64,000 nt of DNA, from positions 259,903 through 323,902 of the forward strand of contig OY764332.1 in NCBI GenBank assembly GCA_963668425.1, read 5' to 3'. The stretch is from Minisyncoccota bacterium. GTDB lineage: Bacteria; Patescibacteriota; Minisyncoccia; Phycocordibacterales; JABAAK01. The stretch's first letter is position 1, and the number at the start of each line of letters is the position of its first letter. Of this stretch, positions 19,437 to 59,900 are shown piece by piece. Made by a program: the position numbers and the translations under genes. Below the pieces are notes generated by a model. The model did not search any database. It saw only the letters and a list, made by a program, of their open reading frames with translations, and was not told the DNA's origin.

Positions 19437-19494
19437 ATCAGTAGTATAAAATACAAAAAATGCGTTTAATATCCGCCTTTCCTGTATATACTAG

Positions 19495-20483: not shown

Positions 20484-20676
20484 TCATTATACTTTGCTCG
20501 TTTTTTTGTGACACGCACTAGTATACCTCCTGAAACTTAATACTTTTTGTTTGAACAGTAGGAGTGCGTTATTCCGAAAGATTGCCATATTATACCCGCT
20601 TTTTGTCAAAAAAGCGGGTACAAAATTTGTAATACATAAAAAAACGGGTATACCATGTGTACTGTAGAAGACAAAT

Positions 20677-20838
20677 GCGCAAGGAATTTGTAAAAAACTC
20701 CTTATTTTATAAGATATTTTACCAAAATTTATTCCTTGTATACTGTAATTGACAAGGAATGCTATTTCCTTGTATATTGCAACTGACAAGGAATACTACT
20801 TCCTTGTATAGTGCAATTGACAAGGAATTATTTTAGGC
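20677..20838. promoter_or_regulatory. Divergent promoter/operator cassette, copy 2 (three TTCCTTGTATA-N-TGACAAGGAA palindromes), between the DUF3800 gene and Fic-2
   Basis: Near-identical to 10804..10930 but with an expanded palindrome array at about 20732, 20766 and 20800. Confidence 0.55.
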
Positions 20839-20888
20839 AGAGATCTATTATACTTTACAAAAAGTAGATATGTTGTATTATCTTGGTT

Positions 20889-21010
20889 TATATTATTAGT
20901 TTTGCTTAAAAGTTGCAATATGAAAATTTATATTATTAGTTTTGCTTAAAAGTTGCAATATGGAAATTTATATTATTAGTTTTGCTTAAAAGTTGCAACA
21001 TGGAAATGTA
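20889..21010. repeat. Three tandem 40-bp repeats (tattattagttttgcttaaaagttgcaatatg(a/g)aaattta)
   Basis: Direct repeats with the block tattattagt at 20891, 20931 and 20971. Confidence 0.8.
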
Positions 21011-21050
21011 TATTGCAAGTATTTATCTAAAATTGTGATATAATAGTACT

Positions 21051-22220
21051 ATGATAAAAACAAGAGAAAAGGGATATGGTGATTTTACGGCAGGAATACA
21101 TAAAAAACACTTTTATAACAAAGAGTATGCATATGAGAGTTTTGTTCCACATTCTGTGAACAGAGAGTATGCTTTTCAAGATTCCAGAATACTTACCCTC
21201 CTTGAAGAGGCGACTAGACATCTTGCGGAATTAAACGCATATTCTGATTTGGTTCCTGATGTTGATTTCTTTATTCAAATGCATGTACGAAATGAGGCGG
21301 TGAAATCAAGTAAAATTGAAGGCACACATACAGACATTAGTGAAGCTGTTCTCTCAGAAAAAGAGATTGAGCCAGAGAAAAGAAATGATTGGCAGGAGGT
21401 TCAAAATTATATAACCGCAATGAATTATGGAATAAAAAAGTTGGAGAAACTGCCTTTGTGTATGCGTCTGTTGTGTGAGACGCATGCAAAGCTGATGCAC
21501 GGTGTTAGAGGGGAGAACAAACAGCCGGGAGAGGTGCGATTAAAGCAGAACTGGATTGGTGGTGTCAGTATTAAAACAGCGTCTTTTATACCACCCCATC
21601 AGGACGATGTCCCCGAACTGTTGAAAGATTTAGAGAAGTTTTGGAATGATAAAAATAATCTTATCATGCCGGATCTGATAAAAGTTGCTATTTCTCATTA
21701 CCAATTTGAAACAATTCATCCGTTTAATGATGGTAACGGCAGGATAGGTCGTATATTAATAGTACTCCATCTTATGCAGATGGGTATATTAAGCAAGCCA
21801 ACGCTTTACCTATCTGATTTCTTTGACAAGCACAAGAGTGCCTACTATGATGCGCTGATGTTTGTAGGAGAGAGAGATGACCTTGATCAATGGATACTCT
21901 TTTTTCTGTCGGGCGTTGTTGAAACTGCAAAAAAAGGAAGAAGTATTTTTCAAGACATTATTGAGTTACGGAGTCAATATGAACAAAAATTGCTTAACCT
22001 TGGCGGTCGCGCGAAAACAGCGAATAAATTACTTCAGTTTTCCTTCTCTCATCCTGCATTTGATACTGTGACAGTATCAGATTACCTTAATATATCACGC
22101 AGTTCAGCAAACATACTTGTGAAACAGATGTCAAGCATGGGCATATTAAAAGAATCAACTGGTTTTTCAAGGAACAGAATCTTTACATTACATCAATATC
22201 TTGACCTGTTTAACACGTAA
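21051..22220 (+). CDS. Fic family protein (HPFNDGNGRIGR) with a C-terminal winged helix. The ATG is only 5 nt after the TGTGATATAAT -10 element, so the mRNA may be leaderless
   Basis: Canonical Fic motif. IEGTHT in the N-terminal domain. Promoter element at 21035..21045. Confidence 0.8.
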   Translation: MIKTREKGYGDFTAGIHKKHFYNKEYAYESFVPHSVNREYAFQDSRILTLLEEATRHLAELNAYSDLVPDVDFFIQMHVRNEAVKSSKIEGTHTDISEAVLSEKEIEPEKRNDWQEVQNYITAMNYGIKKLEKLPLCMRLLCETHAKLMHGVRGENKQPGEVRLKQNWIGGVSIKTASFIPPHQDDVPELLKDLEKFWNDKNNLIMPDLIKVAISHYQFETIHPFNDGNGRIGRILIVLHLMQMGILSKPTLYLSDFFDKHKSAYYDALMFVGERDDLDQWILFFLSGVVETAKKGRSIFQDIIELRSQYEQKLLNLGGRAKTANKLLQFSFSHPAFDTVTVSDYLNISRSSANILVKQMSSMGILKESTGFSRNRIFTLHQYLDLFNT

Positions 22221-33611: not shown

Positions 33612-36377
33612 CTACATCAACTGCTCTCTCGGAGAGGCATACTTTTCTCTCAGTAATATCTTTTTAATGATCTCTATTACGGTGATATGGTAGAATGCAC
33701 TGATTGGTATTACCCAGAAAACCCAGGTTGGTACCGGCACCACTTTCAGTACGGCAGCAAGTGGCGGTACCGCAAAGACAATCCCGAGTAGTAGTATGCT
33801 GATGACAATAGCGGCAATAAGCCATTTATTGTCAAGCAGATTGGTGGTGAAGATGCTTTTATTCAGTCGCTTGAGTGATATTGCCATAAATACAGAATCA
33901 ATGGAAACGGTTAAAAACATTACGGTTTGTACTTGTTCGTGTGAGAGAGTGGTGAACTTGTCCAGAAATATGTACATGCCAAATAAAAACAATCCGGTCA
34001 TGATGGCAATGATGATGATAGAGTGTTTGATATTTTTGCTTATGATATTCCCCTTCGGATCATTTTTCGTATCATATTTTATACTACCTGTATCTCCTTT
34101 TTCAAAAGCAAAGGAAAATGCCATAAATGCTTCCTCTATGATGTTTGCCCACAATATTTGTATAGGATGTATCGGCAGTACTGCGGTTGCTAGCAAACCA
34201 CCTGCTACTAAAATTGCTTCACTGAATGAAGTTGAAAGTAAATAGATTAAAATCTTTTTTAGATTTCCTATAATCTTTTTTCCTTCAAGTATGGATGCGG
34301 TGATAGTGGAGAAGGAGTTTTTAAGTAGAATTAGATCGGATGCCTCTTTCGCTACATCAGTCCCTGATGCAACTGCTATACCTATAGATGCTCGGTGCAA
34401 TGATGGTGCATCATTTACCCCATCGCCGGTCATGGCAACCACTTCCTTTCGGTCTAATAATACCCGCAGTAGGCGTGATTTTTGGTCTGGTGCCATGCGC
34501 GCAAATACCCGTACCGTTCTTGCTTTTGCAAACAATTCTTCATCAGATAGACCTTCCACATCCTCTCCAGTGAGTGTTTCTTGTGAGTCACCCGTGCTAA
34601 TGATGCCTGCCTTCTGAGCAATATGTAGTGCGGTGTATTGGTTGTCGCCAGTTACCATCGTGAGTGTTACGTGTGAGCTGCGAATTTGTCGTATTGCATC
34701 TGGTACGTCAGCACGTACTGTATCTTCTAAAGATAGCATTGCCAGAAATGCAATGTTGTGATTATCCTGCTCAACGACTGACTGTGTTTGTTCTTTTGTA
34801 TCCGCTACATTGTCTGTGCCGGTCTCTATTTTTGCGGAACCGATGGCAATGACCCGTCGCCCCTTCCCTGCTTCTTCAGCAAGTGTTGTTTGTAACTTTT
34901 TTCTATCTGTATCTGTTAGTGTCACCACCTTTCCCTGTTTATGTACTCTTTCTGATTGTTTAAGCACCACTTCTGGTGCTCCAATTATGTAATAATACTG
35001 TTCTCCGCTTTGTTCTTTGGTGATTGCACAGGAGTATTTTTTTATGGAAGTAAACGGTACATATGCGACTCGTTTATCTCGACTTGGTGTTTCTGTGCAC
35101 ACTGCTTCGCATGCCCGCACTAATGCCTGCTCAATAGCTGTTCCACTGAATACAATTTCATCTGAATCTGTATCTTCATGGCTGTGTTTGCGGTCAAGGC
35201 GTCTGCCATCTGTGGTCAAAAAGGCATTGTGTACAATACCCCGTCCGAATGATGAAATTGTCTCATCCGAAACCTCCTCTCGCTTGTCGGCGTAGAGTAT
35301 TTCGGCGAGTACCATGTTTCCATTTGTCAGTGTGCCGGTCTTGTCCATCAATATCCACGATGTTCCGCCGAGTGTTTCAGCTGCGAGCATGTTTCGTACT
35401 AATCCGTTGTTTTGCAGTACTGAGCGCATTCCTAGTACCAGCACTACTGTAATTGCTGCTGGTAAGCCGGATGGAATGCCGGCAATTGCAACGGCGATCG
35501 CGGTAATTATTACTTCGTTAATCTCTATACCCTTCAGCACTCCTATCACAATGATACCTACCACCGCTAAAACTACCAACCCCATGATCCATTGCGCTAA
35601 TTTTTGGATTTGCTGTTGGAGCGGTGTCTTTGCCTCTTCTTCGTATAATTCTTTTGCTATGTTGCCGACTGCAGTTCGCTCGCCAGTATTTACCACAATA
35701 CCACTGCCGTTGCCGGTAATCACTGTCGTCCCCTTCCACGCCATATTTGTTTGCTCCGCGAGCATTTTTTTGTTGGCAAGTGTGATGACCTGCTTATTTA
35801 TCGGCGCCCACTCTCCGGTGAGTATTGATTCATTGATTTGTAAATTATTTTCGCTCAATATTCGTATGTCAGCGGGGATTTTTGATCCGGCTTTAAAGAA
35901 TACAATGTCTCCTGGTACCAGGTTGTTTGCTGCAATTTCTATTTGCTTTCCGTCACGCAATACTGATGCATATTGCCGATCTATCTTTCGCAGCTGCTCA
36001 AATGCTCGTGATACTTTGCCTTCCTGCAAAAAGGCGATTGTTACGTTGATAATCAATACCGCTAGAATGATATATGCATCTGCCGCAAAATCAATGATAT
36101 ATAGCACGACGCTTGCTAGTAGTAAAATTGAGACGATTGGATTTTTGATTTGTGCTATAATTCGTCGTAGTCGCACAAAATACTTCTTACGTTGAATTTT
36201 ATTTTGACCGTATGTTTCTAGTCGTGTGTTTACCTCCTGTTGTGTTAGCCCTTTTTTAGAGGATTTAAATGTTTTCAACACCTCACCTTCTGAGTATTCG
36301 GAAAAATGCCCAGCTTGTGAAGAAATATCTTTACCTGTATGTAATACTGGTTCCACTTTAAGTAGTATACAATACAT
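33612..36377 (-). CDS. P-type cation-transporting ATPase (P2-type, Ca2+/Mg2+-like)
   Basis: Phosphorylation motif DKTGTLT, TGDN (MVTGDNQ) and hinge GDGVNDAP, with 8-10 predicted TM helices. Confidence 0.85.
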   Translation of the reverse strand: MYCILLKVEPVLHTGKDISSQAGHFSEYSEGEVLKTFKSSKKGLTQQEVNTRLETYGQNKIQRKKYFVRLRRIIAQIKNPIVSILLLASVVLYIIDFAADAYIILAVLIINVTIAFLQEGKVSRAFEQLRKIDRQYASVLRDGKQIEIAANNLVPGDIVFFKAGSKIPADIRILSENNLQINESILTGEWAPINKQVITLANKKMLAEQTNMAWKGTTVITGNGSGIVVNTGERTAVGNIAKELYEEEAKTPLQQQIQKLAQWIMGLVVLAVVGIIVIGVLKGIEINEVIITAIAVAIAGIPSGLPAAITVVLVLGMRSVLQNNGLVRNMLAAETLGGTSWILMDKTGTLTNGNMVLAEILYADKREEVSDETISSFGRGIVHNAFLTTDGRRLDRKHSHEDTDSDEIVFSGTAIEQALVRACEAVCTETPSRDKRVAYVPFTSIKKYSCAITKEQSGEQYYYIIGAPEVVLKQSERVHKQGKVVTLTDTDRKKLQTTLAEEAGKGRRVIAIGSAKIETGTDNVADTKEQTQSVVEQDNHNIAFLAMLSLEDTVRADVPDAIRQIRSSHVTLTMVTGDNQYTALHIAQKAGIISTGDSQETLTGEDVEGLSDEELFAKARTVRVFARMAPDQKSRLLRVLLDRKEVVAMTGDGVNDAPSLHRASIGIAVASGTDVAKEASDLILLKNSFSTITASILEGKKIIGNLKKILIYLLSTSFSEAILVAGGLLATAVLPIHPIQILWANIIEEAFMAFSFAFEKGDTGSIKYDTKNDPKGNIISKNIKHSIIIIAIMTGLFLFGMYIFLDKFTTLSHEQVQTVMFLTVSIDSVFMAISLKRLNKSIFTTNLLDNKWLIAAIVISILLLGIVFAVPPLAAVLKVVPVPTWVFWVIPISAFYHITVIEIIKKILLREKYASPREQLM

Positions 36378-36428
36378 GTTGCTTGGTAACGGGGTATACT
36401 ACTGATACACTAATGTTGTGGTGTGTGG

Positions 36429-36519
36429 GAGAGGTGGCTGAGCGGTCGAAGGCGCTCCCCTGCTAAGGGAGTAGGGGGTTTAATAGCCCCCTCGAGGGTT
36501 CGAATCCCTCCCTCTCCGC
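36429..36519 (+). tRNA. tRNA-Ser(GCT), long variable arm
   Basis: Hand-folded cloverleaf: acceptor GGAGAGG/CCTCTCC, anticodon loop CUGCUAA, T-loop GGTTCGAATCC, no encoded CCA. Confidence 0.85.
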
Positions 36520-37017
36520 AGGTAAAAATATTGGTTTTTAAAAAAAGAAGAAGAAAGGAGGGGGAGTAGCGTGCATAGTAATGCACGCTACGTTGGGATT
36601 CGAAAGGCGGAGGCGGTCTACGATTTTGCGAAGCAGGGCGAAGCAAAATTGTCGCCGAGCCCGGGCAGGAAGTTCTTAGTGAGCGATAGCGAGCTTAGAA
36701 ACTTGACGCCGAATCCCTCCCTCTCCGCAGGTAAAAAATAGTAGTTTTTAAAAAGGAGAGGGAGTAGTGTGCATAGTAATGCACACTACGTTGGGATTTG
36801 AAAGGCGGAGGCGGTCTACGATTTTGCGAAGCAGGGCGAAGCAAAATTGTCGCCGAGCCCGGGCAGGAAGTTCTTAGTGAGCGATAGCGAGCTTAGAAAC
36901 TTGACGCCGAATCCCTCCCTCTCCGCAGGTAAAAAATATTGGTTTTTAAAAAAGGATGGGGAGTAAGGAGGGGGAGTAGTGTGCATAGTAATGCACGCTA
37001 CGTTGGGATTTGATATA
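36503..37017. repeat. Tandem array (2.5 copies, period 198-209 bp) immediately downstream of tRNA-Ser(GCT); each unit ends with a copy of the tRNA 3' terminal about 27 nt
   Basis: gaatccctccctctccgcaggtaaaaa recurs at 36503, 36712 and 36910. Each unit contains a perfect 9-bp palindrome (agcgtgcat-agtaa-atgcacgct) and an SD-like aaaggaggggga followed by GTG. Confidence 0.85.
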
Positions 37018-37022
37018 CCCTG

Positions 37023-37484
37023 TTATAACTCAGATACAAGATGTAGTGCTTCCTGTGCGTGTCCTTGTGCTTGCACACTCTTCCAGTGTTTTACTACTAC
37101 ACCGCTTTCATCTATTAGCACTGTGCTACGGATAATACCCATGGATTTTTTGCCGAATTTGTTTTTTTCTCCCCATGCGCCGTATGCTTCAAGCATTTTG
37201 CCATCTTCATCACTTAATAAATCAATGCTGAGTCCGTGCTTACTACAAAACTGTTTGTGTGATTCAACGGTATCTTTGGAGATACCAAATATACTAGTGT
37301 TGTACTTTTCAAATTCTTCACGTAATGCTGAAAACTCCAACCCTTCGGTTGTACATCCGGGAGTATCGTCTTTTGGATAAAAATATAACACCGCTCGCTT
37401 CCCTACTAAGTTGGTAAGTGACACCATCTCTCCGTTTTGATTTCTTACTGAAAATGTTGGTGCCCTTTCGCCTTCTGTGATCAT
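37023..37484 (-). CDS. bcp: Thiol peroxidase, Bcp-type peroxiredoxin
   Basis: Motif YFYPKDDTPGCTTE (peroxidatic Cys in the T/S-x-x-C context). Start probably MITEGERAPTF. Confidence 0.8.
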   Translation of the reverse strand: MITEGERAPTFSVRNQNGEMVSLTNLVGKRAVLYFYPKDDTPGCTTEGLEFSALREEFEKYNTSIFGISKDTVESHKQFCSKHGLSIDLLSDEDGKMLEAYGAWGEKNKFGKKSMGIIRSTVLIDESGVVVKHWKSVQAQGHAQEALHLVSEL

Positions 37485-37563
37485 TGATGAAAGTGTAGCA
37501 TATTTTCTTGTGCATGTTTGTTGTGCTTGCATGAGAGGTATTTTTACCCTTTATAATGAGGTT

Positions 37564-40293
37564 ATGTTGCTTTTTAATCATAAGACACTTGCCCGTCGCA
37601 TTGTTTTGATTGTGTCTGTTGTTCTTGTTGTGTTTGCTTACTTGACTGATGCCCAGGTGCAGGATGGTGTACACACCCTTGGTTCAACCTCCCCTCCTTC
37701 CTACCCTAGCCACACTTCTGTCTCCTGCAGCGACAATGAGTGCGGTTGCAGTTCACAATCACCATATTGTGCTAGCAGTAGCGTAAAAAAGAGATGTTAC
37801 TGTACAACACGAAATGGCTCATGTGTAAAGGCGTGGAGTACAATATCTTGTTCTAACGGCTGTTCAGATGGCAGGTGTAAATCTCGACCTTCTACTCCTA
37901 CCTACTCCTCTCCTTCTTACTCTTCTCCTTCCTATCCTAGCTACACTTCGGCCTCCTGCACTACCGCACCACAGCCATCGCTTTTTTCCACTCGCCCACA
38001 AAGCACCGGAGCGGTTGCTGACTTTGGTTTCACCAACATCGCGCTATACGACTACCAATCAAAGATTACCACTTCCAGTACCTGTGCTGGTGGCTCCTAC
38101 GCTACACAAACAACCCGATCCAAGAGCTATAGCGGTCTCACCAACGGTAGTACCTACTATGTTTGTCTCAGGCGCAAGAACAAGAGCGGTTCCTGCAACG
38201 ACTGGTCTACGTATCGTAGCGTAAGTGTTGTACCGAGTCGAACCTGTGCCTATCGTGCTGCTTCTTGGTATCCTGCTCCATCTTGTGCAAGTGCTTCTTC
38301 TGTTGCCTGTGGTACTGCTATACCTAACACCACCTCTGACAACTGCCGTAGTGGAACAGATACTGACTGTTCTGCTATAAGTTGTAGTGGTAATGCACCT
38401 ACCAGAACCTGTACTGGTACCGGTACAGCATGTACCGCAGGGCAAACATGCTCTGGAGGGAGATGTGTTACCTCCTGCACTACCGCACCACCAACATTTA
38501 CCATAACTGAAGGTAACACAACACTGAGAGCAACCTTTACATTGGACACGAGAAACTATGATTACGATCGGGCGATAAGTAGTTCTTCTTCAACCTGTGC
38601 TGGTAGTACCTGGAGAATTGAAAGTAATGGCTACCAAAACTACAGTAACCTTACCAACGACACCACCTACTATGTCTGTCTCAGACGCAGAAACAATAGT
38701 GGTTCCTGTATCAGTTGGTCATCTTCTCGTGTAGTCAGTGGTACACCTTCTGCTCCTTCCTCTCCTCCTTCCTATCCTAGCTACACTTCTGTCTCTTGCA
38801 GCGACAATGAATGCGGTTGCGATTCACAATCACCATGGTGTGCTAGCAGTAGCGTGAAAAAGAGATGTTACTGTACAACACGAAGTGGCTCATGTGTAAA
38901 GGCATGGAGTACAATATCTTGTTCTAACGGTTGTTCAGGTGGTAGGTGTAAATCTCGACCTTCTTCTCCTTCTGGCTCTTCGTGTACTGCTGTTAACGGA
39001 GGATGGTCTACTTGGAGTTACTGTAGGTGTACTCCCAGTACCTCTGATGCTTCTACTGTAGGTGAGCAGACTCGTCGCTGTAACAATCCTTCTCCTTCTT
39101 GTGGTGGATCCTCATGTTCAGGTCGCTCTTATCGCAGTTGTAATACTTCAGGGTGTGCTGTCCCTTTTAGAAGATGTAGTAGCTGTGTAGGAGGGACAAC
39201 TACATGTTCAGGCAATAAAGTCGTATCTTCGGGTTGGAAGAGTGCATATGATAATTCGGACTGTGGAGGTTGTGGGAAGAGTACTACCTGCTCTAACGGT
39301 TGTTCAGGTGGCAGTTGTAAATTGGGCTCCTGTAAGACTGGACACGTCCTGGATAACGGTGCCTGTTGGTCTTCATGGAGTTACTGTGCTTGCACTTCCG
39401 ACAAATCTGATTCTGCTACAAGTGGTGTACGGTACCGTCACTGTCGCAGTGGTGCTTGCCAGGGATCCCAAACTAAATCCTGTACTGTCTCAGGAGGGCT
39501 GTGTTCTACTTCCACTTCTCCTTCTAACACCGGAATCTGGTCTGATTGGTCTCGTTGTGGGTGTACCTATGATAAAAGTGATTCTGCTACAAGTGGTGTA
39601 CGGTCCCGTACTTGTATTGGTGGTCGTTCTTGCGTTGGTGATACTTATGAATATTGTACCACCTCAGGGTGTGCTGTCTCTTCTTCTCCCACCTACTCTT
39701 CTCCTACCTATTCTACCTCTGGTTCCTGTAGGAGTAACAGTGATTGTGGCGGTGATACGTGCTCTGGAGGAGTGTGTTGGGTTTGTGTAAAGTGCAATAC
39801 ATGTACACATGGGTACGATTGTACACGGAAGTCTGGGTCATCATCTCCTTCCTACTCTTCTCCTTCCTATTCTCCAACGTATTCACCAACATACTCCCCT
39901 ACGTATTCTCCAACGTATTCACCAACCTACTCCTCTCCTACCTATCCTTCTTACTCTTCTTCTTGTTGTCATTGGCATAGGGGAGGGATAACAAGATCAT
40001 GCTCTTCTACTAGGTCGTCCGAACACAACCACCCAGGTAGTGGACGTTCGGATTGTAATCACGTAAGCCACAACAATCTCACCTCCCCTCCTTCCTATCC
40101 TTCTTACTCCTCTCCTACCTACTCCTCTCCTACCTACTCTTCTCCTACCTACTCTTCTCCTTCCTATCCTTCCTATTCTCCTAGTTCCTGTAGCAGTAAC
40201 AGTGATTGTAGTGATATATGCTCTAGCGGGGTGTGTTGGGCTTGTACAAAGTGCAGTACATGTACACATGGGTGGGATTGTAAACGGGAGTGA
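37564..40293 (+). CDS. Giant secreted Cys-rich TSP1-repeat protein, paralog of 2305..7216. Likely start MLLFNHKTLARRIVLIVSVVLVVFAYL, about 910 aa
   Basis: It shares long blocks with gene 1 (CTTAPQPSLFSTRPQ...YYVCLRRKNK..., SCSDNECGCSSQSPYCASSSVKKRCYCTTR..., CCHWH C-terminal motif). TSP1-like units WSTWSYCRCTPSTSDASTVGEQTRRCNNPSPSCGG. Ser/Pro/Thr/Tyr heptad-like linkers (YSPTYSPTYSPTYS). Two C-terminal CWxCxKCxTCTHGxDC knots. Confidence 0.7.
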   Translation: MLLFNHKTLARRIVLIVSVVLVVFAYLTDAQVQDGVHTLGSTSPPSYPSHTSVSCSDNECGCSSQSPYCASSSVKKRCYCTTRNGSCVKAWSTISCSNGCSDGRCKSRPSTPTYSSPSYSSPSYPSYTSASCTTAPQPSLFSTRPQSTGAVADFGFTNIALYDYQSKITTSSTCAGGSYATQTTRSKSYSGLTNGSTYYVCLRRKNKSGSCNDWSTYRSVSVVPSRTCAYRAASWYPAPSCASASSVACGTAIPNTTSDNCRSGTDTDCSAISCSGNAPTRTCTGTGTACTAGQTCSGGRCVTSCTTAPPTFTITEGNTTLRATFTLDTRNYDYDRAISSSSSTCAGSTWRIESNGYQNYSNLTNDTTYYVCLRRRNNSGSCISWSSSRVVSGTPSAPSSPPSYPSYTSVSCSDNECGCDSQSPWCASSSVKKRCYCTTRSGSCVKAWSTISCSNGCSGGRCKSRPSSPSGSSCTAVNGGWSTWSYCRCTPSTSDASTVGEQTRRCNNPSPSCGGSSCSGRSYRSCNTSGCAVPFRRCSSCVGGTTTCSGNKVVSSGWKSAYDNSDCGGCGKSTTCSNGCSGGSCKLGSCKTGHVLDNGACWSSWSYCACTSDKSDSATSGVRYRHCRSGACQGSQTKSCTVSGGLCSTSTSPSNTGIWSDWSRCGCTYDKSDSATSGVRSRTCIGGRSCVGDTYEYCTTSGCAVSSSPTYSSPTYSTSGSCRSNSDCGGDTCSGGVCWVCVKCNTCTHGYDCTRKSGSSSPSYSSPSYSPTYSPTYSPTYSPTYSPTYSSPTYPSYSSSCCHWHRGGITRSCSSTRSSEHNHPGSGRSDCNHVSHNNLTSPPSYPSYSSPTYSSPTYSSPTYSSPSYPSYSPSSCSSNSDCSDICSSGVCWACTKCSTCTHGWDCKRE

Positions 40294-40554
40294 CAATGGG
40301 ATGCATAGGGGGTGGGTGGACATTGGGGTATCGAGGTATAAGTGCTTCCGTTCCTTGTTCTTGTTAAGGACATATTGTGGTTTTTGTGATTGATATACTT
40401 GTAGTATTTTATTAAAAGTTTTACCACTTAGAAGGTGATACTTAAGAATGTTGTGGCTGTATTGCTTTGAAAAAAAGAACTGTCCAGCGTGGCGTTGTTC
40501 GTTTTTGTTGTGCTTGCATGAGAGGTACTTAGTGGTGGTGTACAATTTAGTCAT

Positions 40555-40626
40555 CTCCCCGTAGTTTAACGGATAGAACGCGGGCTTGCGGAGCTCGAAA
40601 TGTAGGTTCGATTCCTGCCGGGGAGG
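40555..40626 (+). tRNA. tRNA, anticodon apparently GCG (Arg)
   Basis: Hand fold: acceptor CTCCCCG/CGGGGAG, anticodon stem CGGGC/GCTCG, loop TTGCGGA, T-loop TTCGATT. The GCG anticodon is unusual for bacteria, so treat the isotype as provisional. Confidence 0.55.
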
Positions 40627-40644
40627 CAAGATGGGGTTATAGTT

Positions 40645-41090
40645 ATTTTTTACCTGCGGAGAGGGAGGGATTCGGCGTCAAGTTTCTAAGCTCGCTATCG
40701 CTCACTAAGAACTTCCTGCCCGGGCTCGGCGACAATTTTGCTTCGCCCTGCTTCGCAAAATCGTAGACCGCCTCCGCCTTTCGAATCCCAACGTAGCGTG
40801 CATTACTATGCACGCTACTCCCCCTCCTTTCTTCTTCTTTTTTTAAAAACCAATATTTTTACCTGCGGAGAGGGAGGGATTCGGCGTCAAGTTTCTAAGC
40901 TCGCTATCGCTCACTAAGAACTTCCTGCCCGGGCTCGGCGACAATTTTGCTTCGCCCTGCTTCGCAAAATCGTAGACCGCCTCCGCCTTTCGAATCCCAA
41001 CGTAGCGTGCATTACTATGCACGCTACTCCCCCTCCTTTCTTCTTCTTTTTTTAAAAACCAATATTTTTACCTGCGGAGAGGGAGGGATT
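40645..41090. repeat. Inverted copy of the about 209-bp tandem repeat array (2 units), downstream of tRNA-Ser(CGA) on the minus strand
   Basis: The reverse complement of the 36503..36920 units. acctgcggagagggagggattcggcgtcaag recurs at 40652 and 40861. Confidence 0.85.
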
Positions 41091-41165
41091 CGAACCCTCG
41101 ATACGAGTTTGAAATCGTATACCAGTTTTCGAGACCGGCGCTTTCAACCACTCAGCCACCCCTCC
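41075..41165 (-). tRNA. tRNA-Ser(CGA), long variable arm
   Basis: Minus-strand fold: acceptor GGAGGGG/CCTCTCC (one GU pair), anticodon loop CUCGAAA, variable hairpin GATACGA/TCGTATC, T-loop GGTTCGAATCC. Confidence 0.8.
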
Positions 41166-41188
41166 AGTGTGTATGATAGCGTACTTGA

Positions 41189-42259
41189 TTATTGCTTTTC
41201 TTGTTTTTCTGTGGCGATTTTCTCTAATGATTGTATTACTGCTTCGTTGGTGAGTAGTGAGGTGACATAGGTGTGGATTTGGTCATCATCCATATCGGTT
41301 TGTTTTTTCTTGAAGCGCTCAACCTCTTTTTGCACTTCATCTATGTTAGCGTGTATGTTTTCTTGTGTGCTTACGGCATTCATGATGAGTTGTATTTTTG
41401 CTCGTTTCCTTGCATCATCCCGCAACTGTTCCCATAACTTCCCTTCTGACATGTTTTGTGCTTTGAGGTATTCCTCTATTGTGGTATTAAAATGGCTTGC
41501 TTGTGATTTCATTTCTTCATATGCTCGCTTACTCTCCTCTTCAATCATTATCTCCGGTATAGTGATGGTAGTATTCTCCGCAATGGTATCTATTATTTTT
41601 TGTCGAAATAGTGCCCGTGCTTGCAGTGCTTTTTCCTGTGTTATGGATTCCTGTATTCCTTTTTTAAAGCTTTCTATGTCTTTATGCTGTTGCGATATCT
41701 CTTGTATATATATATCGGTGAGCTCTGGCAAATCGTCTTCGTCTTTTGGAAAATCTTTTTCTGGGTGTGCTTTTTTATATAATCCCTTTCGTACATCCAG
41801 TAATACCTGTTGCACTTCGTCATCGGTCGCACTTTTCGGCTCTTCTGGCTTTTCTATTTTCTGTAAGAGATCTTTATACTCTGGCAGGGTTACTTCTGGC
41901 ATTACATAGAATTGAATTTGAAATGAAACATTACCCTTGTCAGCAATACTTGTTATTTGGAGTTGTGGCTGCCCTAGCGGCACCACTCCCTCTCCTGCTA
42001 CTATTTCGGCAAAGTGTTTTGTTATTACTTCTTGCGCGCCTTGTCGCCAAACCTCCAGCGACCCAACTTCTCGCTCTACAACTTCTGTCGGAGCGGTTCC
42101 TTCTCTGAATCCATCTATTTTTTTATTTTTTCCGATTTTTTGCAATACTTCACTATATACTTTGCTGATCATGTCTTTCGGCACCACACCTTCAATTTTG
42201 GTGTGTGCTTTTTTGCTGTCTTTTTGTGTTTGTATTGAAAATTGTTCTTGTGTAGTCAT
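41189..42259 (-). CDS. tig: Trigger factor, short form
   Basis: N-terminal ribosome-binding signature KKIDGFREGTAP (consensus GFRxGxxP). The acidic, helical remainder is consistent with a reduced Tig. Confidence 0.55.
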   Translation of the reverse strand: MTTQEQFSIQTQKDSKKAHTKIEGVVPKDMISKVYSEVLQKIGKNKKIDGFREGTAPTEVVEREVGSLEVWRQGAQEVITKHFAEIVAGEGVVPLGQPQLQITSIADKGNVSFQIQFYVMPEVTLPEYKDLLQKIEKPEEPKSATDDEVQQVLLDVRKGLYKKAHPEKDFPKDEDDLPELTDIYIQEISQQHKDIESFKKGIQESITQEKALQARALFRQKIIDTIAENTTITIPEIMIEEESKRAYEEMKSQASHFNTTIEEYLKAQNMSEGKLWEQLRDDARKRAKIQLIMNAVSTQENIHANIDEVQKEVERFKKKQTDMDDDQIHTYVTSLLTNEAVIQSLEKIATEKQEKQ

Positions 42260-45871: not shown

Positions 45872-47680
45872 TTACCACATAAACATGTCTTTGCTATAGC
45901 GTAATAGATCTTGTGTGTCGGTGAATGGGTCTTCTGATCTGAGAATGATTGTTATAATGTGTCCTTCTTGTTTTGGCGATTTGAAAACTGTCGCGAGGTT
46001 GCGCTTTGCCCTCAGTGTTGTTCCTGTTTTACCACCCAATACCTGTTCTGCTATCTCTTGGTTGTTTAGTAACCTGTTGGTGGTTTTTATTGGTATTATC
46101 CGTCTGGTGTTGCCTGTGGTAATGATGTGATTTGGTTTTTTTAGAATGGCAAATATATCTTTTTTGTTTTCAAGCATGAAATGCAATAGTTTGGTTATAT
46201 CTGCTGTGGTTGCATAGTTCATTTCTTCACTGCCTACCTCTGGGTCAAGTCCGGTTACATTAGCGAAGTATGTATCATGCATACTCAGCTTGTGTGCTTG
46301 TTTGTTCATTTTTTGTATAAAGGTTTCTATGCCCACCACCTCTGCTACTGCTGTGGCGATTTCATTATTTGATTCTATTAATATTGCATGCAGTGCATCA
46401 TCAAACGTTATTGTTTCTCCTGCGACAAATTTCCCTGATATGCCCTTGCTGTTTAATGCACTCTGATTAATGGTGATGTGGTCATCAGGTTGTAGTGTTT
46501 CAGATGCAACCAACGCAGTCATTAGTTTGGTTATACTGGCGATTGGCATTTTTCTTTTTCTGTTTTTTTGTAGTAGTGTATGAACTTCCCCATCTGTGTT
46601 TACGAACACTGCTAGGGCGGCATTTGCTGATAGTGCAAGTCCTTCTTTGTCGTCATACTTTGGAGTTGGATATGTGCTGTTTTGCTTTTTTATTGTGATG
46701 TCATTAAATCCTTTTTGTTGTTTGTATAATGCTGTTGCAATAGTAACTCCGACAAAGCGCCACTGCCAGGGCTTTGGCTGTTGAGCGATGCTATCTATTT
46801 CTTTCGGATAACTCATTACAAATCCATATTTGTGTGCATTTTTTTTCATCCACCTACCGCCGGCACTTTTGTTAAAGCGTTTATCTAGAGCAGTGTATTT
46901 GATTGATGCGTCTGTTATGTTGATTGTGGTACCGAGCTGATGTTCTGATTTACCCGGCTCAGCAATGATATCTTCTGGCATTGATCTATCTTTATATTTT
47001 GCGCGCCAATATCTATAGAGGTATTGTTGCACTTCGTATTCTCTGTATCCTGATGAGATCGCAAGGTGCACGCCATCTTTTTTTGCTTTTTGAAACATTT
47101 GTTTCACACTTGGTATTATGTCTGTGTGCAAACATACAGTGCCGTTTGTTTTTACTTCACTTGCTATATTCTCAAGCATTGGTGGAATATAGTTTGCTGG
47201 AAGTGATGTTGTCTGTTCGGTTATCTTTTTTAATGAGAAATCTGGGTATATACTTTTTTGTTCTGGGCAAAGGTGTATTGATAGCACTTTGTTTATTTTA
47301 TTTTTGGTTGCTTCATCAAGCTTGCCTGTTTTTTGGATATTGTGGATTTCTTGAAATTTTTCTACTGCTGCTCTGGTTGTGTTTCCATAGTACCCTGTTA
47401 TCTTTTTTTCTGGATAGATATTTTTATCTTGTGCTAGTATTTGTTGTAGTAATATTACACTTGGTCCAGTCATGTTAGGGGATACTATTTGTTTTAATCT
47501 GTTTGCCCATCGCTGTGTTTTGATTGCTTCTATTTCAATTTTTGTGATCTGTGCGCGGTCAGTATGACCGTGTGTTTTGAAGTAGTGTGGTGCGTTGTTG
47601 ACGTATTGTAGAAACAATATTATGATGATGAAAATCGCAATGGTGGTGGTGATGTGTTTTTTGTCTATGTTCTTTTTCAT
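45872..47680 (-). CDS. Multi-domain D-alanyl-D-alanine carboxypeptidase: PG-binding domain, VanY-like M15 domain and PBP5-like S11 domain
   Basis: PG_binding_1-like segment (ILLQQILAQDKNIYP...TRAAVEKFQ). VanY motifs (SGYREYEVQ..., EPGKSEHQLGTTINI). S11 motifs SITKLM (SxxK), ESNNE (SxN) and GGKTGT (KTG). Confidence 0.75.
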   Translation of the reverse strand: MKKNIDKKHITTTIAIFIIIILFLQYVNNAPHYFKTHGHTDRAQITKIEIEAIKTQRWANRLKQIVSPNMTGPSVILLQQILAQDKNIYPEKKITGYYGNTTRAAVEKFQEIHNIQKTGKLDEATKNKINKVLSIHLCPEQKSIYPDFSLKKITEQTTSLPANYIPPMLENIASEVKTNGTVCLHTDIIPSVKQMFQKAKKDGVHLAISSGYREYEVQQYLYRYWRAKYKDRSMPEDIIAEPGKSEHQLGTTINITDASIKYTALDKRFNKSAGGRWMKKNAHKYGFVMSYPKEIDSIAQQPKPWQWRFVGVTIATALYKQQKGFNDITIKKQNSTYPTPKYDDKEGLALSANAALAVFVNTDGEVHTLLQKNRKRKMPIASITKLMTALVASETLQPDDHITINQSALNSKGISGKFVAGETITFDDALHAILIESNNEIATAVAEVVGIETFIQKMNKQAHKLSMHDTYFANVTGLDPEVGSEEMNYATTADITKLLHFMLENKKDIFAILKKPNHIITTGNTRRIIPIKTTNRLLNNQEIAEQVLGGKTGTTLRAKRNLATVFKSPKQEGHIITIILRSEDPFTDTQDLLRYSKDMFMW

Positions 47681-47780
47681 TGTCTTGCAGGTTCAGCGTG
47701 CTACATGTTATTGATGTCGTTTGGTTTGATAAGAATAATACACTTTAAGCATTTCATTTTTGTAGTATAGCATTATACTG

Positions 47781-48086
47781 ATGACCATGTTTAAGAAAAA
47801 AGTACTTGCCATTGTCTCTAGCATTCCGAGAGGATCGGTGATGACGTACAAGGGGGTTGCTATGTTGGCAGGGTCACCAGATGCGGCACGAGCTGTTGGT
47901 CATATTATGGCGAACAACTTTGATCCGTCAGTTCCCTGCCATCGGGTTGTGCGATCTGATGGTAGTGTTGGGGCATATAACCGAGGTGGCATTTCTCAGA
48001 AAAAACAACTTTTACATCGTGAGGGTGTACAGATGGAAAATGATTGTGTCGTTCCCCTATCTATTATAAAAAGTGTTTCTATGTGA
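47781..48086 (+). CDS. MGMT-family protein (O6-alkylguanine-DNA alkyltransferase DNA-binding domain only), 101 aa
   Basis: Motifs YKGVAMLAGSPDAARAVG and PCHRVV (active-site Cys). Confidence 0.7.
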   Translation: MTMFKKKVLAIVSSIPRGSVMTYKGVAMLAGSPDAARAVGHIMANNFDPSVPCHRVVRSDGSVGAYNRGGISQKKQLLHREGVQMENDCVVPLSIIKSVSM

Positions 48087-48560
48087 AACATGTTTCACGT
48101 GAAACGTTTTTTTGACTTTTCTATGTGAAACACTTTGGTCGTTTTAATTGAAAAACCTTGATTTCTTGTATAATAATGTGCTCAGAGTGTTTCACGTGAA
48201 ACGTTTTTGTGCTTTTTTTTGTGAAATGTGTTTCACGTGAAACGTTTTTTTGACTTTTCTATGTGAAACACTTTGGTCATTTTTATTGAAAAACCTTGAT
48301 TTCTTGTATAATAATGTGCTCAGAGTGTTTCACGTGAAACGTTTTTGTGCTTTTTTTGTGAAATGTGTTTCACGTGAAACGTTTTTTTGACTTTTCTATG
48401 TGAAACACTTTGGTCATTTTTATTGAAAAACCTTGATTTCTTGTATAGTAATGTGCTCAGAGTGTTTCACGTGAAACGTTTTTGTGCTTTTTTTTGTGAA
48501 ATGTGTTTCACGTGAAACGTTTTTTTGACTTTTCTATGTGAAACACTTTGCTGTTTTGTT
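48078..48560 (+). promoter_or_regulatory. Tandem array (3.5 units of 138 bp) of promoter/operator modules. Each has an extended -10 (cttgTATAATaatg) and two copies of the palindrome GTTTCACGTGAAAC 41 bp apart
   Basis: The 14-bp palindrome occurs at 48093, 48190, 48231, 48328, 48368, 48465 and 48505. The motif ttgacttttctatgtgaaacactttggtc recurs. The array lies upstream of yraN. Confidence 0.75.
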
Positions 48561-59841: not shown

Positions 59842-59900
59842 CTATGTACTGACGCCCTTCCGTCAGTGTTTTGTTTATTAGAGACAACTCTGATGGTGGA

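What the first reader, a model, noticed from the sequence alone, without database searches (positions are those of the whole stretch)
36429..41165. Inverted tRNA-Ser genes with mirrored tandem about 200-bp repeat arrays bracket a 4.7-kb cassette holding bcp, giant gene 2 and a tRNA-Arg
tRNA-Ser(GCT) (+, 36429..36519) and tRNA-Ser(CGA) (-, 41075..41165) face each other. Each is followed downstream by 2 to 2.5 tandem copies of a 198-209-bp unit, and every unit ends with a copy of the last about 27 nt of the tRNA (gaatccctccctctccgcagg). Reiterated tRNA 3'-end copies are the classic footprint of site-specific integration at a tRNA attB, but here the units between the copies are near-identical to each other. 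That favours amplification of one att-containing element, or a structured repeat, over independent insertions. The units contain a perfect 9-bp palindrome and an SD-like aaaggaggggga followed by GTG that opens an about 57-codon frame. The mirrored arrays form a long inverted repeat around bcp, the second giant Cys-rich gene and tRNA(GCG), so this segment also looks invertible or excisable.
Basis: seen in the sequence. Interest (0 to 1): 0.7.

Follow-up and report, generated by a model that had tools for sequence, protein, structure and literature searches.

The report
Structured repeats matched to tRNA ends
The repeats behind the two facing tRNA-Ser genes are copies of an apparently undescribed, strongly folded ~180-base element that in many ultra-small (Patescibacteria) bacteria sits directly after a tRNA or tmRNA gene and carries both a copy and a complement of that gene's 3' end; here its mirrored arrays also appear to have flipped the 4-kb segment between them.

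Summary
tRNA-Ser(GCT) (36428-36518, +) and tRNA-Ser(CGA) (41075-41165, -) are each followed by tandem 198-209-nt units (2.4 and 2.0 copies). Each unit ends in a copy of the tRNA from T-loop C56 onward, and the arrays form a 246-nt perfect inverted repeat.

The unit is not a plain att scar or a coding frame. A 5' "guide" (P1, hairpin H1, P2) is complementary to the tRNA 3' end and closes a conserved three-way-junction core.

Homologous units lie 3' of both tRNA-Ser genes in Kaiserbacteria relatives. In about 22 other Patescibacteria-like contigs they lie 3' of at least 15 other tRNA species and a tmRNA gene. Copy and guide match the local tRNA.

Covariation is strong: 94.6% of pair cells are paired, 20 of 28 pairs show double changes, and G.U outnumbers A.C 43 to 8 on the tRNA-sense strand. 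I found no Rfam family, no linked protein gene, and no phage or plasmid match.

The facing tRNA-Ser genes are ancestral synteny, not cassette ends. However, one contig at 96% DNA identity carries the intervening segment in the opposite orientation.

Best reading: a new tRNA-end-matched, non-autonomous duplicative element that folds as a single strand. Its mobilising mechanism is unknown.

The parts
36428..36518 (+). tRNA-Ser(GCT). Its 3' part from C56 (36501) onward is the sequence copied in every unit.
   Evidence: ARAGORN; Rfam tRNA 56.1 bits
36523..36731 (+). Unit L1 (209 nt). AT-rich spacer/hairpin 36523-36556. P1 5' strand 36557-36565. H1 hairpin 36566-36591. P2 5' strand 36595-36601. Three-way-junction core 36603-36709. 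tRNA-end copy from 36710 (P2 3' strand 36711-36717, P1 3' strand 36718-36726, discriminator G 36727).
   Evidence: Sequence; fold -85 kcal/mol, z = -6.15; covariance-model hit 36594-36722, 108.2 bits
36732..36929 (+). Unit L2 (198 nt, 97% identical to L1). It has a compensatory C-G to U-A change in H1 and G.U changes in P1 and P2.
   Evidence: covariance-model hit 36792-36920, 106 bits
36930..37013 (+). Unit L3: the 5' fragment only (spacer, a 13-nt internal duplication, P1, H1, P2 5' strand), truncated at ..GGGATTTGA|TATACC next to the bcp 3' end. The same junction is attached to tRNA-Ser(CGA) in L044.
37023..37532 (-). bcp/peroxiredoxin (AhpC-TSA), inside the segment bounded by the arrays.
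   Evidence: Pfam PF00578, E = 6.5e-37
37477..40293 (+). Cys-rich repetitive ORF (938 codons, no Pfam hit). This is cargo specific to this genome; relatives carry other genes here.
40555..40627 (+). tRNA-Arg(GCG), conserved inside the segment in all relatives. It has no unit.
40653..40861 (-). Unit R2 (209 nt, 100% identical to L1). Its tRNA-end copy (40647-40674) is followed by the native-type trailer TAAAAAAT.
   Evidence: covariance-model hit 40662-40790
40862..41070 (-). Unit R1 (209 nt, 100% identical to L1).
   Evidence: covariance-model hit 40871-40999
41075..41165 (-). tRNA-Ser(CGA). Its 3' acceptor strand is the GCT type (CCTCTCC), giving a G.U pair with its own 5' strand GGAGGGG. Relatives have CCCCTCC, so the 3' end has been exchanged with the other locus.
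36492..36737 (.). Left arm of the 246-nt perfect inverted repeat. The right arm is 40856-41101. Further inverted pairs extend the homology over the whole arrays.
   Evidence: the repeat finder I1-I6
40856..41101 (.). Right arm of the 246-nt perfect inverted repeat.
   Evidence: the repeat finder I1

Best explanation
The repeat unit belongs to an apparently undescribed family of structured elements, about 100-200 nt long, that sit immediately 3' of tRNA and tmRNA genes in Patescibacteria, in the same orientation as the gene.

A unit has three parts:
1. A 5' 'guide' that is the reverse complement of the tRNA 3' end. The acceptor 3' strand forms P1 and the T-stem 3' strand plus T-loop back to C56 forms P2, usually with a conserved hairpin H1 between them.
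2. A conserved three-way-junction core: GAAAGGCGGAG, hairpin H2, GAGCCCGGGCAGGAAG, hairpin H3 with a bulged A, a U.U pair and tandem G.A pairs, then ACUUGACGC.
3. In most members, a 3' copy of the tRNA from C56 to a few nucleotides past its 3' end.

What is shown: the fold is maintained by compensatory changes on the tRNA-sense strand, and guide and copy match whichever tRNA lies upstream. Units are patchy among close relatives, occur in tandem, are nearly identical within a genome, and end in decayed 5' fragments distally.

What is inferred: it is a non-autonomous, duplicative (mobile) element that recognises tRNA 3' ends through this sequence match. It inserts next to the tRNA so that the gene stays intact, and each insertion recreates a target, which allows tandem arrays. 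The active form is a folded single strand, either RNA read through from the tRNA promoter or ssDNA. The mobilising enzyme is encoded elsewhere and is unknown.

In this window the element occupies the only two tRNA genes with a nearly identical 3' end, the two tRNA-Ser genes. These genes face each other by ancestral synteny. The arrays therefore form long perfect inverted repeats, and recombination between them has exchanged the tRNA 3' ends and inverted the intervening segment in a related strain.
For: Anatomy and fold:
- The sense strand folds at -85 kcal/mol (z = -6.15); the antisense strand at -68.5 kcal/mol. DNA parameters give the same fold.
- L1 versus L2 differ by a compensatory change in H1 and by changes to G.U only.

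Homologues found by synteny, independently of any sequence pattern:
- Units lie 3' of both tRNA-Ser genes in L001-L005 and L048. They are absent in L006 and L046, and only a fragment is present in L044.

Family beyond this clade:
- The genome scan gave L007, a unit after tRNA-Tyr.
- The metagenome scan gave 21 real loci, and the covariance model found two more copies.
- Units follow Ala, Gly, Gln, Leu, Arg (three isoacceptors), His, Phe, Trp, Thr, Met, Lys, Ile, Tyr, Ser(TGA), and a tmRNA gene in L009.
- In 35 of 38 model hits an annotated tRNA or tmRNA gene lies directly upstream on the same strand.

Matching to the local tRNA:
- The copy is identical to the local tRNA from C56 over the full 19-21 nt, and up to 62 nt further.
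- The guide-to-own-tRNA duplex averages -24.4 kcal/mol against -16.4 for non-cognate tRNAs. The own tRNA ranks first or second in 19 of 23 cases, permutation p < 1e-4.
- In L038 the guide is a 22-nt perfect complement of the tRNA-Lys 3' end.

Covariation:
- RNAalifold found compensatory changes in 17 of 28 pairs.
- On the model alignment 94.6% of cells are paired, against 24-51% when partners are slid. Twenty of 28 pairs show double changes, and there are 161 double-change cells against 45.5 +/- 5.9 in shuffles, 0 of 500 shuffles reaching the observed value.
- G.U cells number 43 and A.C cells 8.
- Real units score 64-115 bits; loci that matched the search pattern by chance score 11-27 bits.

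Target specificity in this clade:
- Only the two tRNA-Ser genes are occupied, out of 9 tRNA genes in the window and the other tRNAs in L001-L006.

Exchange between the two sites:
- L005 Ser(CGA) and L003 Ser(GCT) keep their own tRNA end next to the gene and carry the other type in the distal copy. The window's Ser(CGA) carries the GCT-type end.

Inversion:
- L044 positions 1-8422 match window 49433-40990 on the minus strand (96.4%). L044 8317-8832 matches window 36908-37423 on the plus strand (95.8%).
- The truncation junction and the 13-nt duplication are shared.
Against: - No transposase, integrase, reverse transcriptase or nuclease gene is linked to any unit, so mobility rests on distribution only.
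- No pair of near-identical strains shows a clean filled site against an empty site with exact boundaries. L046 and L006 are empty but distant.
- Units at different tRNAs within one genome (L026 Tyr and Trp; L038 Arg and Lys) have divergent cores. Retargeting is therefore rare, and how a 15-22-nt guide comes to match each new tRNA is unexplained.
- In many loci a strong terminator-like hairpin separates the tRNA from the unit, which argues against efficient co-transcription.
- No promoter-like site lies inside the window arrays.
- Thermodynamic prediction has the guide capturing the tRNA's own 3' half in a co-transcript, which would be harmful if the unit were highly expressed.
- The invariant blocks CCCGGGYAGGAAG and CTTGACGCC were imposed by the search pattern for the metagenome loci, so true diversity and range are underestimated.
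- The model-based alignment leans towards the model's structure.
- The inversion rests on one contig that ends 500 nt past the junction.
Confidence: 0.55

Rival explanations
1. A host non-coding RNA gene, not a mobile element. The RNA is read through from the tRNA promoter. Its P1-P2 stack mimics the acceptor and T-stem stack of the neighbouring tRNA. RNase P, 3'-end processing and the CCA-adding enzyme therefore excise and stabilise a discrete RNA of about 180 nt, whose conserved core binds a protein or is catalytic. Copies arise only by local duplication and gene conversion.
For: - Covariation and the G.U bias on the tRNA-sense strand fit an RNA.
- P1 and P2 share a continuous 3' strand identical to the tRNA's acceptor and T-stem strand plus discriminator.
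- Core sequence is highly conserved across distant lineages, and tandem G.A pairs, a U.U pair and a bulged A are typical of protein-binding RNA motifs.
- The contexts are housekeeping genes such as ClpB, DnaX, Mur ligase and tig.
- A CCA-adding enzyme is encoded in the window and the tRNA genes lack an encoded CCA.
Against: - A processing mimic does not need to copy the particular neighbouring tRNA, yet it does so at 18 or more different tRNA and tmRNA genes.
- Presence or absence varies among close relatives, and copy number runs from 0 to 2.4.
- The locus is not conserved between lineages.
- Terminator-like hairpins often precede the unit.
- The variant units at tRNA-Arg genes lack an adjacent 3' copy and pair with the real tRNA end instead.
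Confidence: 0.25
2. One reading: scars or amplified att sites of classical integrase-mediated integration at tRNA-Ser. The attL and attR direct repeats would be the tRNA 3' end, and the unit a remnant arm of an island or a cis-mobilisable element.
For: - Direct repeats start in the T loop and run to the tRNA 3' end, and tmRNA genes are also used. That is the classic target range and sublocation of tyrosine integrases (own knowledge, Williams 2002).
- The region between the tRNA-Ser genes is a hotspot for restriction-modification and other cargo in relatives.
Against: - No integrase was found in any of about 30 loci or in the 64-kb window.
- Units also stand alone between housekeeping or tRNA genes with no cargo, for example in L026.
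- The core is conserved with base-pair covariation and strand-biased G.U pairs, which double-stranded att arms do not show.
- The element carries the complement of the target as well as the copy.
- No match was found in phage, plasmid or viral collections.
Confidence: 0.08
3. The arrays or the inversion are assembly artefacts, produced by collapse or mis-joining at repeats.
For: - R1, R2 and L1 are 100% identical, and the inverted repeat exceeds short-read length.
- Short-read contigs of relatives break at this spot.
Against: - Independent assemblies show the same architecture, including tandem units (L005 x2, L011 x2 plus a fragment, L002 1.6 copies) and units at both tRNA-Ser genes.
- Several relatives, including L044, have contig names in the style of long-read assemblers and lengths up to 1.1 Mb, some marked circular. 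That these are long-read assemblies is an inference from the names.
- L2 and L3 carry private substitutions.
Confidence: 0.02
4. The unit encodes a peptide of about 56 residues (GTG at 36571, preceded by a Shine-Dalgarno-like GGAGG).
For: An open frame at 36571-36741 and corresponding frames in the other units.
Against: - The 'SD' is the paired 5' strand of P1.
- Homologues differ by hairpin replacements and length changes (core from 79 to 173 nt) that destroy any frame while keeping base pairs.
- ORFs clustered across loci only because they overlap the conserved RNA.
Confidence: 0.01

Closest known systems
Genomic islands and prophages that integrate into tRNA or tmRNA genes through tyrosine integrases (T-loop sublocation), including tycheposons and cis-mobilisable remnants
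   Same: The target is the 3' part of a tRNA or tmRNA gene. The tRNA stays intact because the sequence from the T loop to the 3' end is duplicated as a direct repeat. Successive events give tandem repeats of the tRNA end. The neighbourhood is a cargo hotspot.
   Different: No integrase and usually no cargo. The element is only about 100-200 nt. Its core is conserved as a single-strand fold with covariation. It also carries the reverse complement of the target. The same core is found at 18 or more different targets.
IS200/IS605 elements with their non-autonomous derivatives (PATE, REP/RAYT), and IS91-type rolling-circle elements
   Same: These are strand-specific elements rich in hairpins. In IS608 the target is recognised by base pairing with a guide inside the element's left end, and the target remains on the left flank. 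Rolling-circle elements give tandem copies and copies truncated at variable 3' points. The unit/tRNA junction falls at G53-T54-T55-C56, which is GTTC, the IS91 target tetranucleotide (own knowledge).
   Different: Guides there are 4 nt long, here 15-22 nt. No Y1 or Y2 HUH transposase was seen. A three-way-junction core of this kind is not known for those families. Those elements do not end in a full copy of the target.
Folded single-strand recombination substrates that use host enzymes: integron attC sites, and CTX-phi and other Xer-exploiting elements
   Same: Non-autonomous elements whose site is created by intrastrand pairing. Structure is conserved more than sequence. Tandem arrays arise because each integration regenerates a site.
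   Different: No integron integrase and no dif site. The target is a tRNA end. The core sequence is far more conserved than in attC sites.
Guide-plus-scaffold RNAs of mobile elements (IscB omega-RNA, TnpB reRNA, IS110 bridge or seek RNA)
   Same: A guide-length stretch of 15-22 nt complementary to a specific DNA site lies directly next to a conserved structured scaffold of about 110-130 nt.
   Different: No effector gene lies next to any copy. The guide is complementary to the flank rather than derived from it. No match to the Rfam models of those RNAs.
tRNA-mimic RNAs processed by tRNA enzymes (tmRNA tRNA-like domain, mascRNA, YrlA, external guide sequences for RNase P)
   Same: The 5' and 3' ends pair into an acceptor-like helix stacked on a T-stem-like helix, with a discriminator-type 3' tail.
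   Different: There is no T loop or elbow. The mimic copies the neighbouring tRNA exactly. ARAGORN and the Rfam tRNA, tmRNA and YrlA models do not match the unit.

Membership tests
Any Rfam 15 RNA family | Covariance-model score at or near the family's gathering threshold | tested here: not met
   The gathering scan of the window found only tRNAs and RNase P. The E<=10 scan of 36400-37050 and the E<=5 scan of six other loci gave no consistent hit over the units.
tRNA or tmRNA gene | Cloverleaf (D, anticodon and T arms), or a tRNA-like domain plus tag reading frame | tested here: not met
   ARAGORN and Rfam call only the flanking genes, not the units. The unit has no T-stem 5' strand or T loop, and H1 has a 4-nt loop.
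tRNA-targeting integrative island (tyrosine integrase) | Direct repeats made of the tRNA 3' part flanking the element | tested here: met
   Exact repeats from C56 through the tRNA 3' end, 19-62 nt long.
tRNA-targeting integrative island (tyrosine integrase) | Integrase gene inside the element, next to an att site | tested here: not met
   No Phage_integrase or recombinase domain in the gene tables of L001-L006, L044-L048, the window ORFs or neighbours of other loci.
IS200/IS605-derived PATE or REP element | Y1 HUH transposase (TnpA or RAYT) in the genome, and subterminal hairpins with 4-nt guide/target pairing | not testable with these tools
   Whole genomes could not be scanned, and none was seen in the DNA available. 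Hairpins and guide/target pairing exist but are much longer.
IS91-type rolling-circle element | Insertion next to GTTC or CTTG, a Y2 HUH transposase, and ori and ter ends | tested here: inconclusive
   The junction coincides with T-loop GTTC in the tRNAs. No transposase was seen, and ori/ter ends are undefined.
Integron cassette array (attC) | An IntI integrase with attI upstream, and attC imperfect palindromes between ORFs | tested here: not met
   No integrase. The units are not separated by cassettes.
Guide RNA of an adjacent effector (omega-RNA, bridge RNA, crRNA, TIGR) | Effector gene (IscB, TnpB, IS110 recombinase, Cas, Tas) in cis | tested here: not met
   No protein family recurs near the units. 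The only recurrent cluster is ORFs overlapping the unit itself. Neighbours are housekeeping genes.
Type III toxin-antitoxin RNA repeat array (ToxI-like) | Short tandem RNA repeats directly upstream of an endoribonuclease toxin gene | tested here: not met
   The arrays abut bcp and tRNA-Arg, and no toxin gene is adjacent. I did not run a PADLOC scan.
Site-specific invertible segment (invertase switch or shufflon) | Inverted repeats at both ends | tested here: met
   A 246-nt perfect inverted repeat plus further pairs. The opposite orientation is seen in L044.
Site-specific invertible segment (invertase switch or shufflon) | Dedicated invertase gene next to or inside the segment | tested here: not met
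   The segment holds bcp, a Cys-rich ORF and tRNA-Arg only. Homologous recombination between the long repeats is sufficient (inference).
New family proposed here (tRNA-end-matched element) | Match to covariance model R1 above about 60 bits, a position directly 3' of a tRNA or tmRNA gene on the same strand, and a guide complementary to that gene's 3' end | tested here: met
   The window units score 106-108 bits. They lie after the tRNA-Ser genes. P1 and P2 pair with the tRNA end.

The most novel reading that the evidence does not exclude
The family is a base-pair-programmed system that targets the 3' ends of tRNA and tmRNA genes. A new RNA or ssDNA scaffold (the three-way-junction core) presents a 15-22-nt guide to the tRNA end. 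It works with a trans-encoded or host enzyme, or with catalytic activity of its own, to insert or copy itself there. That would make it a new kind of guide-directed mobile element, or guide RNA, specific to the Candidate Phyla Radiation (the ultra-small Patescibacteria lineages).
Probability: 0.3. Interest if true: 0.9.

Novelty: categorically new. Interest (0 to 1): 0.82.

Why it matters
tRNA and tmRNA genes are the classic landing sites for mobile DNA, and every characterised case relies on a protein integrase that reads the site.

Here a small conserved fold with no linked protein is found at 18 or more different tRNA and tmRNA genes. Each time it carries both a copy and a complement of the local 3' end.

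If targeting works through that complementarity, this would be a compact, naturally reprogrammable way of addressing genomic sites. It would also be a new class of structured nucleic acid in the poorly understood Patescibacteria.

Even on the conservative reading it has three uses:
- It gives a new RNA family with strong covariation for Rfam-type annotation.
- It explains recurrent assembly breaks at tRNA genes in genomes of these lineages.
- It shows how such arrays drive exchange of tRNA 3' ends and inversion of a gene-flux hotspot.

Covariance model R1 and about 38 instances make the question directly testable by transcriptomics, long-read population analysis and biochemistry.

Tried and rejected
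- **Rfam.** A gathering scan of the window and permissive scans of the unit and of six other loci matched no family.
- **Coding potential.** The 56-codon frame is rejected. Hairpins are replaced and lengths change between homologues.
- **Tandem arrays in relatives.** Tandem Repeats Finder at score >=100 found none in L001-L003. Reading the sequence then showed single and partial units, so that negative was a sensitivity issue.
- **Viral contigs.** The scan gave one hit (L043) with 69% GC and 17.9 bits, which is chance.
- **Phages and plasmids.** blastn of the unit against the phage and plasmid collections found nothing.
- **Linked protein.** All-vs-all BLASTP of ORFs within 5 kb of units, plus Pfam scans of neighbours and of 28 window ORFs, found no recombinase, transposase, RT or nuclease.
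- **Promoter and terminator scan of 36250-41300.** Nothing inside the arrays.
- **Exact-protein look-up of the window's bcp.** Not on record.
- **Short-read contigs of close relatives (L045, L049, L050).** All end at tRNA-Ser(CGA), so they are uninformative about orientation.
- **Literature.** Six successful searches found nothing describing such an element. PMC13011429 (group I introns at tRNA position 35/36 in Patescibacteria) is unrelated.
- **Ideas considered and dropped:**
  - An intron in the T loop of a duplicated tRNA. The P2 5' strand is the complement of C56-C63, not the T-stem 5' strand.
  - A hammerhead or other small ribozyme core. There is no motif or Rfam match.
  - A retroviral-type primer-binding site. 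The guide does not pair with CCA.
  - A box C/D guide. There are no C or D boxes.


Full report
**1.

ARAGORN and Rfam place tRNA-Ser(GCT) at 36428-36518 (+), tRNA-Ser(CGA) at 41075-41165 (-) and tRNA-Arg(GCG) at 40555-40627. Tandem Repeats Finder reports 36554-36965 (period 198, 95% matches) and 40647-41092 (period 209, 100% matches).

In register the left array holds L1 (36523-36731), L2 (36732-36929, 97% identical) and a 5' fragment L3 (36930-37013) that stops at the 3' end of bcp. The right array holds R1 (40862-41070) and R2 (40653-40861), both identical to L1.

The 22-mer CGAATCCCTCCCTCTCCGCAGG occurs six times against none expected. Arms 36492-36737 and 40856-41101 form a 246-nt perfect inverted repeat.

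**2. Anatomy of a unit, read from the sequence and from folding**

After the tRNA end comes an AT-rich spacer that can form a weak A5/T5 hairpin. The parts that follow are:
- GGAGGGGGA (36557-65), the P1 5' strand.
- A 26-nt perfect hairpin H1 (36566-91).
- GGGAUUC (36595-601), the P2 5' strand.
- A core (36603-709) that starts with AAAGGCGGAG and ends with ACUUGACGC.
- The tRNA copy from C56 (36710).

GAAUCCC and UCCCUCUCC in that copy pair with P2 and P1. The two helices therefore share a continuous 3' strand identical to the tRNA's T-stem and acceptor strand plus discriminator.

The sense strand folds at -85 kcal/mol (z = -6.15). The antisense strand folds at -68.5. DNA parameters give the same fold.

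The few differences between L1 and L2 are one compensatory C-G to U-A change in H1 and changes that create G.U pairs on the sense strand.

**3. Genomic context**

The window is a bacterial chromosome. It carries RNase P class A, ThrRS, UvrC, trigger factor, NusA, topoisomerase I, LysRS and the CCA-adding enzyme. The best named relative of its trigger factor is Candidatus Kaiserbacteria.

In seven relatives with trigger factor 69-89% identical, the order is conserved: tig, tRNA-Ser(CGA), variable genes, tRNA-Arg(GCG), bcp, tRNA-Ser(GCT), P-type ATPase, UvrC, ThrRS. The facing tRNA-Ser genes are therefore ancestral and were not created by the repeats.

The genes between them differ from genome to genome: restriction-modification systems, proteases, NTPases, and here the Cys-rich ORF. 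The interval is a gene-flux hotspot.

**4. The same element occurs in relatives**

Reading the DNA after each tRNA-Ser showed homologous units in L001-L005 and L048. The states are:
- One full unit plus a fragment in L002.
- Two tandem units in L005.
- Fragments only at L001 Ser(CGA) and L002 Ser(GCT).
- None in L006 and L046.

Between genomes the hairpins H1 and H2 are replaced by unrelated sequences that still pair. Within a genome the units at the two loci are nearly identical.

The tRNA-end copy sometimes belongs to the other tRNA-Ser type. L005 Ser(CGA) and L003 Ser(GCT) keep their own end next to the gene and carry the foreign type distally. The window's tRNA-Ser(CGA) itself carries the GCT-type end, which puts a G.U pair in its acceptor stem. 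Sequence has therefore moved between the two sites.

**5. A family far beyond this clade**

A gapped pattern built from two conserved blocks found one unit among the GTDB species representatives (L007, Patescibacteria). It lies after tRNA-Tyr, with a 3' end that copies tRNA-Tyr and 5' strands complementary to it.

A tRNA-independent pattern found 35 metagenome loci:
- 21 are real, low-GC contigs rich in tRNA genes.
- 14 are chance matches in high-GC coding DNA. These score only 11-27 bits with the covariance model, against 64-115 bits for real units.

The model also found two extra copies, L026 after tRNA-Tyr and L038 after tRNA-Arg. It found no further copy in the window.

Units follow Ala, Gly, Gln, Leu, three Arg isoacceptors, His, Phe, Trp, Thr, Met, Lys, Ile, Tyr, three Ser isoacceptors and a tmRNA gene. 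In 35 of 38 hits an annotated tRNA or tmRNA gene lies directly upstream on the same strand. The other three are at a contig start or follow unannotated tRNA-like ends.

The copy is identical to the local tRNA from C56 through the whole 19-21 nt to its 3' end. It often continues through the following hairpin, up to 62 nt.

The guide is matched to the upstream gene itself:
- Duplex energy is -24.4 kcal/mol with the own tRNA against -16.4 with non-cognate tRNAs.
- The own tRNA ranks first or second in 19 of 23 cases, permutation p < 1e-4.
- The L038 unit after tRNA-Lys has a 22-nt perfect complement.

A variant at tRNA-Arg genes (L019, L028, L038) lacks an adjacent 3' copy. Its guide pairs across the terminator hairpin with the real tRNA end.

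**6. Structure is under selection**

RNAalifold on 31 cores predicts P2, P3 and P4, with 17 of 28 pairs showing compensatory changes.

On the 39-hit model alignment:
- 94.6% of cells are paired, against 24-51% when partners are slid.
- 20 of 28 pairs have double changes.
- There are 161 double-change cells against 45.5 +/- 5.9 in shuffles, and 0 of 500 shuffles reach the observed value.

P4 keeps a bulged A, a U.U pair and tandem G.A pairs. G.U cells outnumber A.C cells 43 to 8, so the folding strand is the tRNA-sense strand, as RNA or as ssDNA.

Caveats:
- Two sequence blocks were imposed by the search pattern.
- The model alignment leans towards the model's structure.
- P2 covariation partly reflects copying of the tRNA, which is why I tested the guide against the tRNA gene itself.

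**7. What it is not**

- No Rfam family matches.
- It is not a tRNA or tmRNA.
- It is not coding.
- It has no match in phage, plasmid or viral collections.
- It is not linked to any recurrent protein gene. Neighbours are housekeeping genes, and no integrase, transposase or RT appears in any locus or in the window.
- The literature searches found no description of such an element.

**8. Inversion**

Contig L044 (trigger factor 99% identical, DNA about 96%) matches the window's minus strand from 49433 to 40990. That stretch runs through tig and tRNA-Ser(CGA) into the start of a unit. L044 then continues on the window's plus strand from 36908 to 37423.

It shares L3's private 13-nt duplication and the exact truncation junction to bcp. 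Read from tig, bcp is sense in the window and antisense in L044. A deletion cannot produce that; an inversion with end points in the inverted arrays can.

L001-L005, L046 and L048 have the window's orientation. No invertase gene is present, and homologous recombination between inverted repeats of 246 nt or more is sufficient (inference). The evidence is one contig that ends 500 nt past the junction.

**9. How it most likely works**

Shown:
- A conserved single-strand fold.
- Strict linkage to tRNA or tmRNA 3' ends, and strict orientation.
- A guide and a copy that match the local gene.
- Patchy distribution, tandem arrays and homogeneity within a genome.
- Distal copies that are the most decayed.
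- Occupation, in this clade, of only the two tRNA genes that share a 3' end.

Inferred:
- It is a non-autonomous duplicative element that recognises the tRNA end by sequence match.
- It inserts beside the tRNA. The boundaries are equally compatible with entry at T55/C56 or just after the trailer. Two of three informative tRNA-Ser cases favour an element that carries the copy at its right end.
- Each insertion regenerates a target, which allows arrays.

Not resolved:
- Whether the active form is RNA or ssDNA. Terminator-like hairpins before many units, and the predicted capture of the tRNA 3' half by the guide, argue against strong co-transcription. The G.U bias and the RNA-like motifs argue for RNA.
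- The identity of the enzyme.
- How guides come to match new tRNAs. Units at different tRNAs in one genome are divergent, so retargeting is rare.

The main rival is a host ncRNA that uses tRNA mimicry for processing. Classical att scars, an artefact and a peptide gene are unlikely.

**10. Verdict**

The 'structured repeat' and 'invertible' suggestions are supported. The 'cassette bracketed by integration sites' and 'SD plus ORF' suggestions are not.

The unit is a member of a family I could not place in any known kind. It resembles integrase islands in its choice of target, IS608-type elements and guide RNAs in its logic, and tRNA mimics in its closing helix. For each of these it fails the defining feature I could test.

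Noticed in passing
window 48082-48550 (and 46000-48000): A 138-nt x 3.4 tandem repeat packed with GTGTTTCACGTGAAAC palindromes lies at the sign change of GC skew. It may mark a replication origin or terminus region.
   Followed up: no
window 2412-3482 and 4769-5670: Long in-frame tandem repeats (351 nt x 3.1 and 171 nt x 5.3) lie inside a 1549-codon ORF (2567-7216, -) that has no Pfam hit. A second large ORF (15438-19436, -) also has no hit.
   Followed up: partly
window 9971-22220 and 60286-60996: A cluster of toxin- or defence-type genes: Zeta toxin, two Fic/DOC proteins and DUF3800. A SocA/Panacea antitoxin-like gene lies further on. AT-rich 34-nt and 40-nt tandem repeats sit at 20732-21014.
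   Followed up: partly
window 37508-37543 and 40495-40530: A shared 36-nt motif, TTGT.C.T.TTTGTTGTGCTTGCATGAGAGGTA.TT (89% identical), lies upstream of the Cys-rich ORF and of tRNA-Arg(GCG). It is probably a common promoter box. A promoter-like site is called at 40518-40546.
   Followed up: no
window 59769-59842; L018, L024, L039: tRNA-Ile with anticodon TAT (UAU) appears in the window and in several unrelated unit-bearing contigs.
   Followed up: no
L001 13345-18058; L003 8450-10953; L005 12202-19696; L046 3767-8746: The interval between the two tRNA-Ser genes carries different cargo in each relative:
- L001: TaqI and MvaI/BcnI-type restriction enzymes with LexA-fused methylases.
- L003: Vsr plus Dcm.
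- L005: an nSTAND NTPase plus an S8 peptidase.
- L046: a 1659-residue alpha-2-macroglobulin-like protein.
It behaves like a defence or gene-flux hotspot without an integrase.
   Followed up: partly
window 36577-36580 against L044 8396-8399 and L002 about 15078: The H1 loop reads AGTA in all window units but TACT, its reverse complement, in L044 and L002 Ser(GCT). The loop has flipped inside a perfect palindrome.
   Followed up: partly
L001 about 19556-20158, L002 about 14330-14980, L003 about 13384-13986: Just beyond the tRNA-Ser(GCT) units, relatives encode a protein made of repeated CxxC...F....DG....CxxC zinc-ribbon modules (faint Stc1 hit). It is absent from the window.
   Followed up: no
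L004 about 19160-19310 (-) and L048 12150-12215: Extra hairpins of the GTGCAT....ATGCAC type (H1-like) occur after or inside degenerate units. H1-like modules may spread on their own.
   Followed up: no
L045, L049, L050 contig ends: Three short-read contigs of close relatives all terminate at or just after tRNA-Ser(CGA). The repeat is a recurrent assembly breakpoint.
   Followed up: yes
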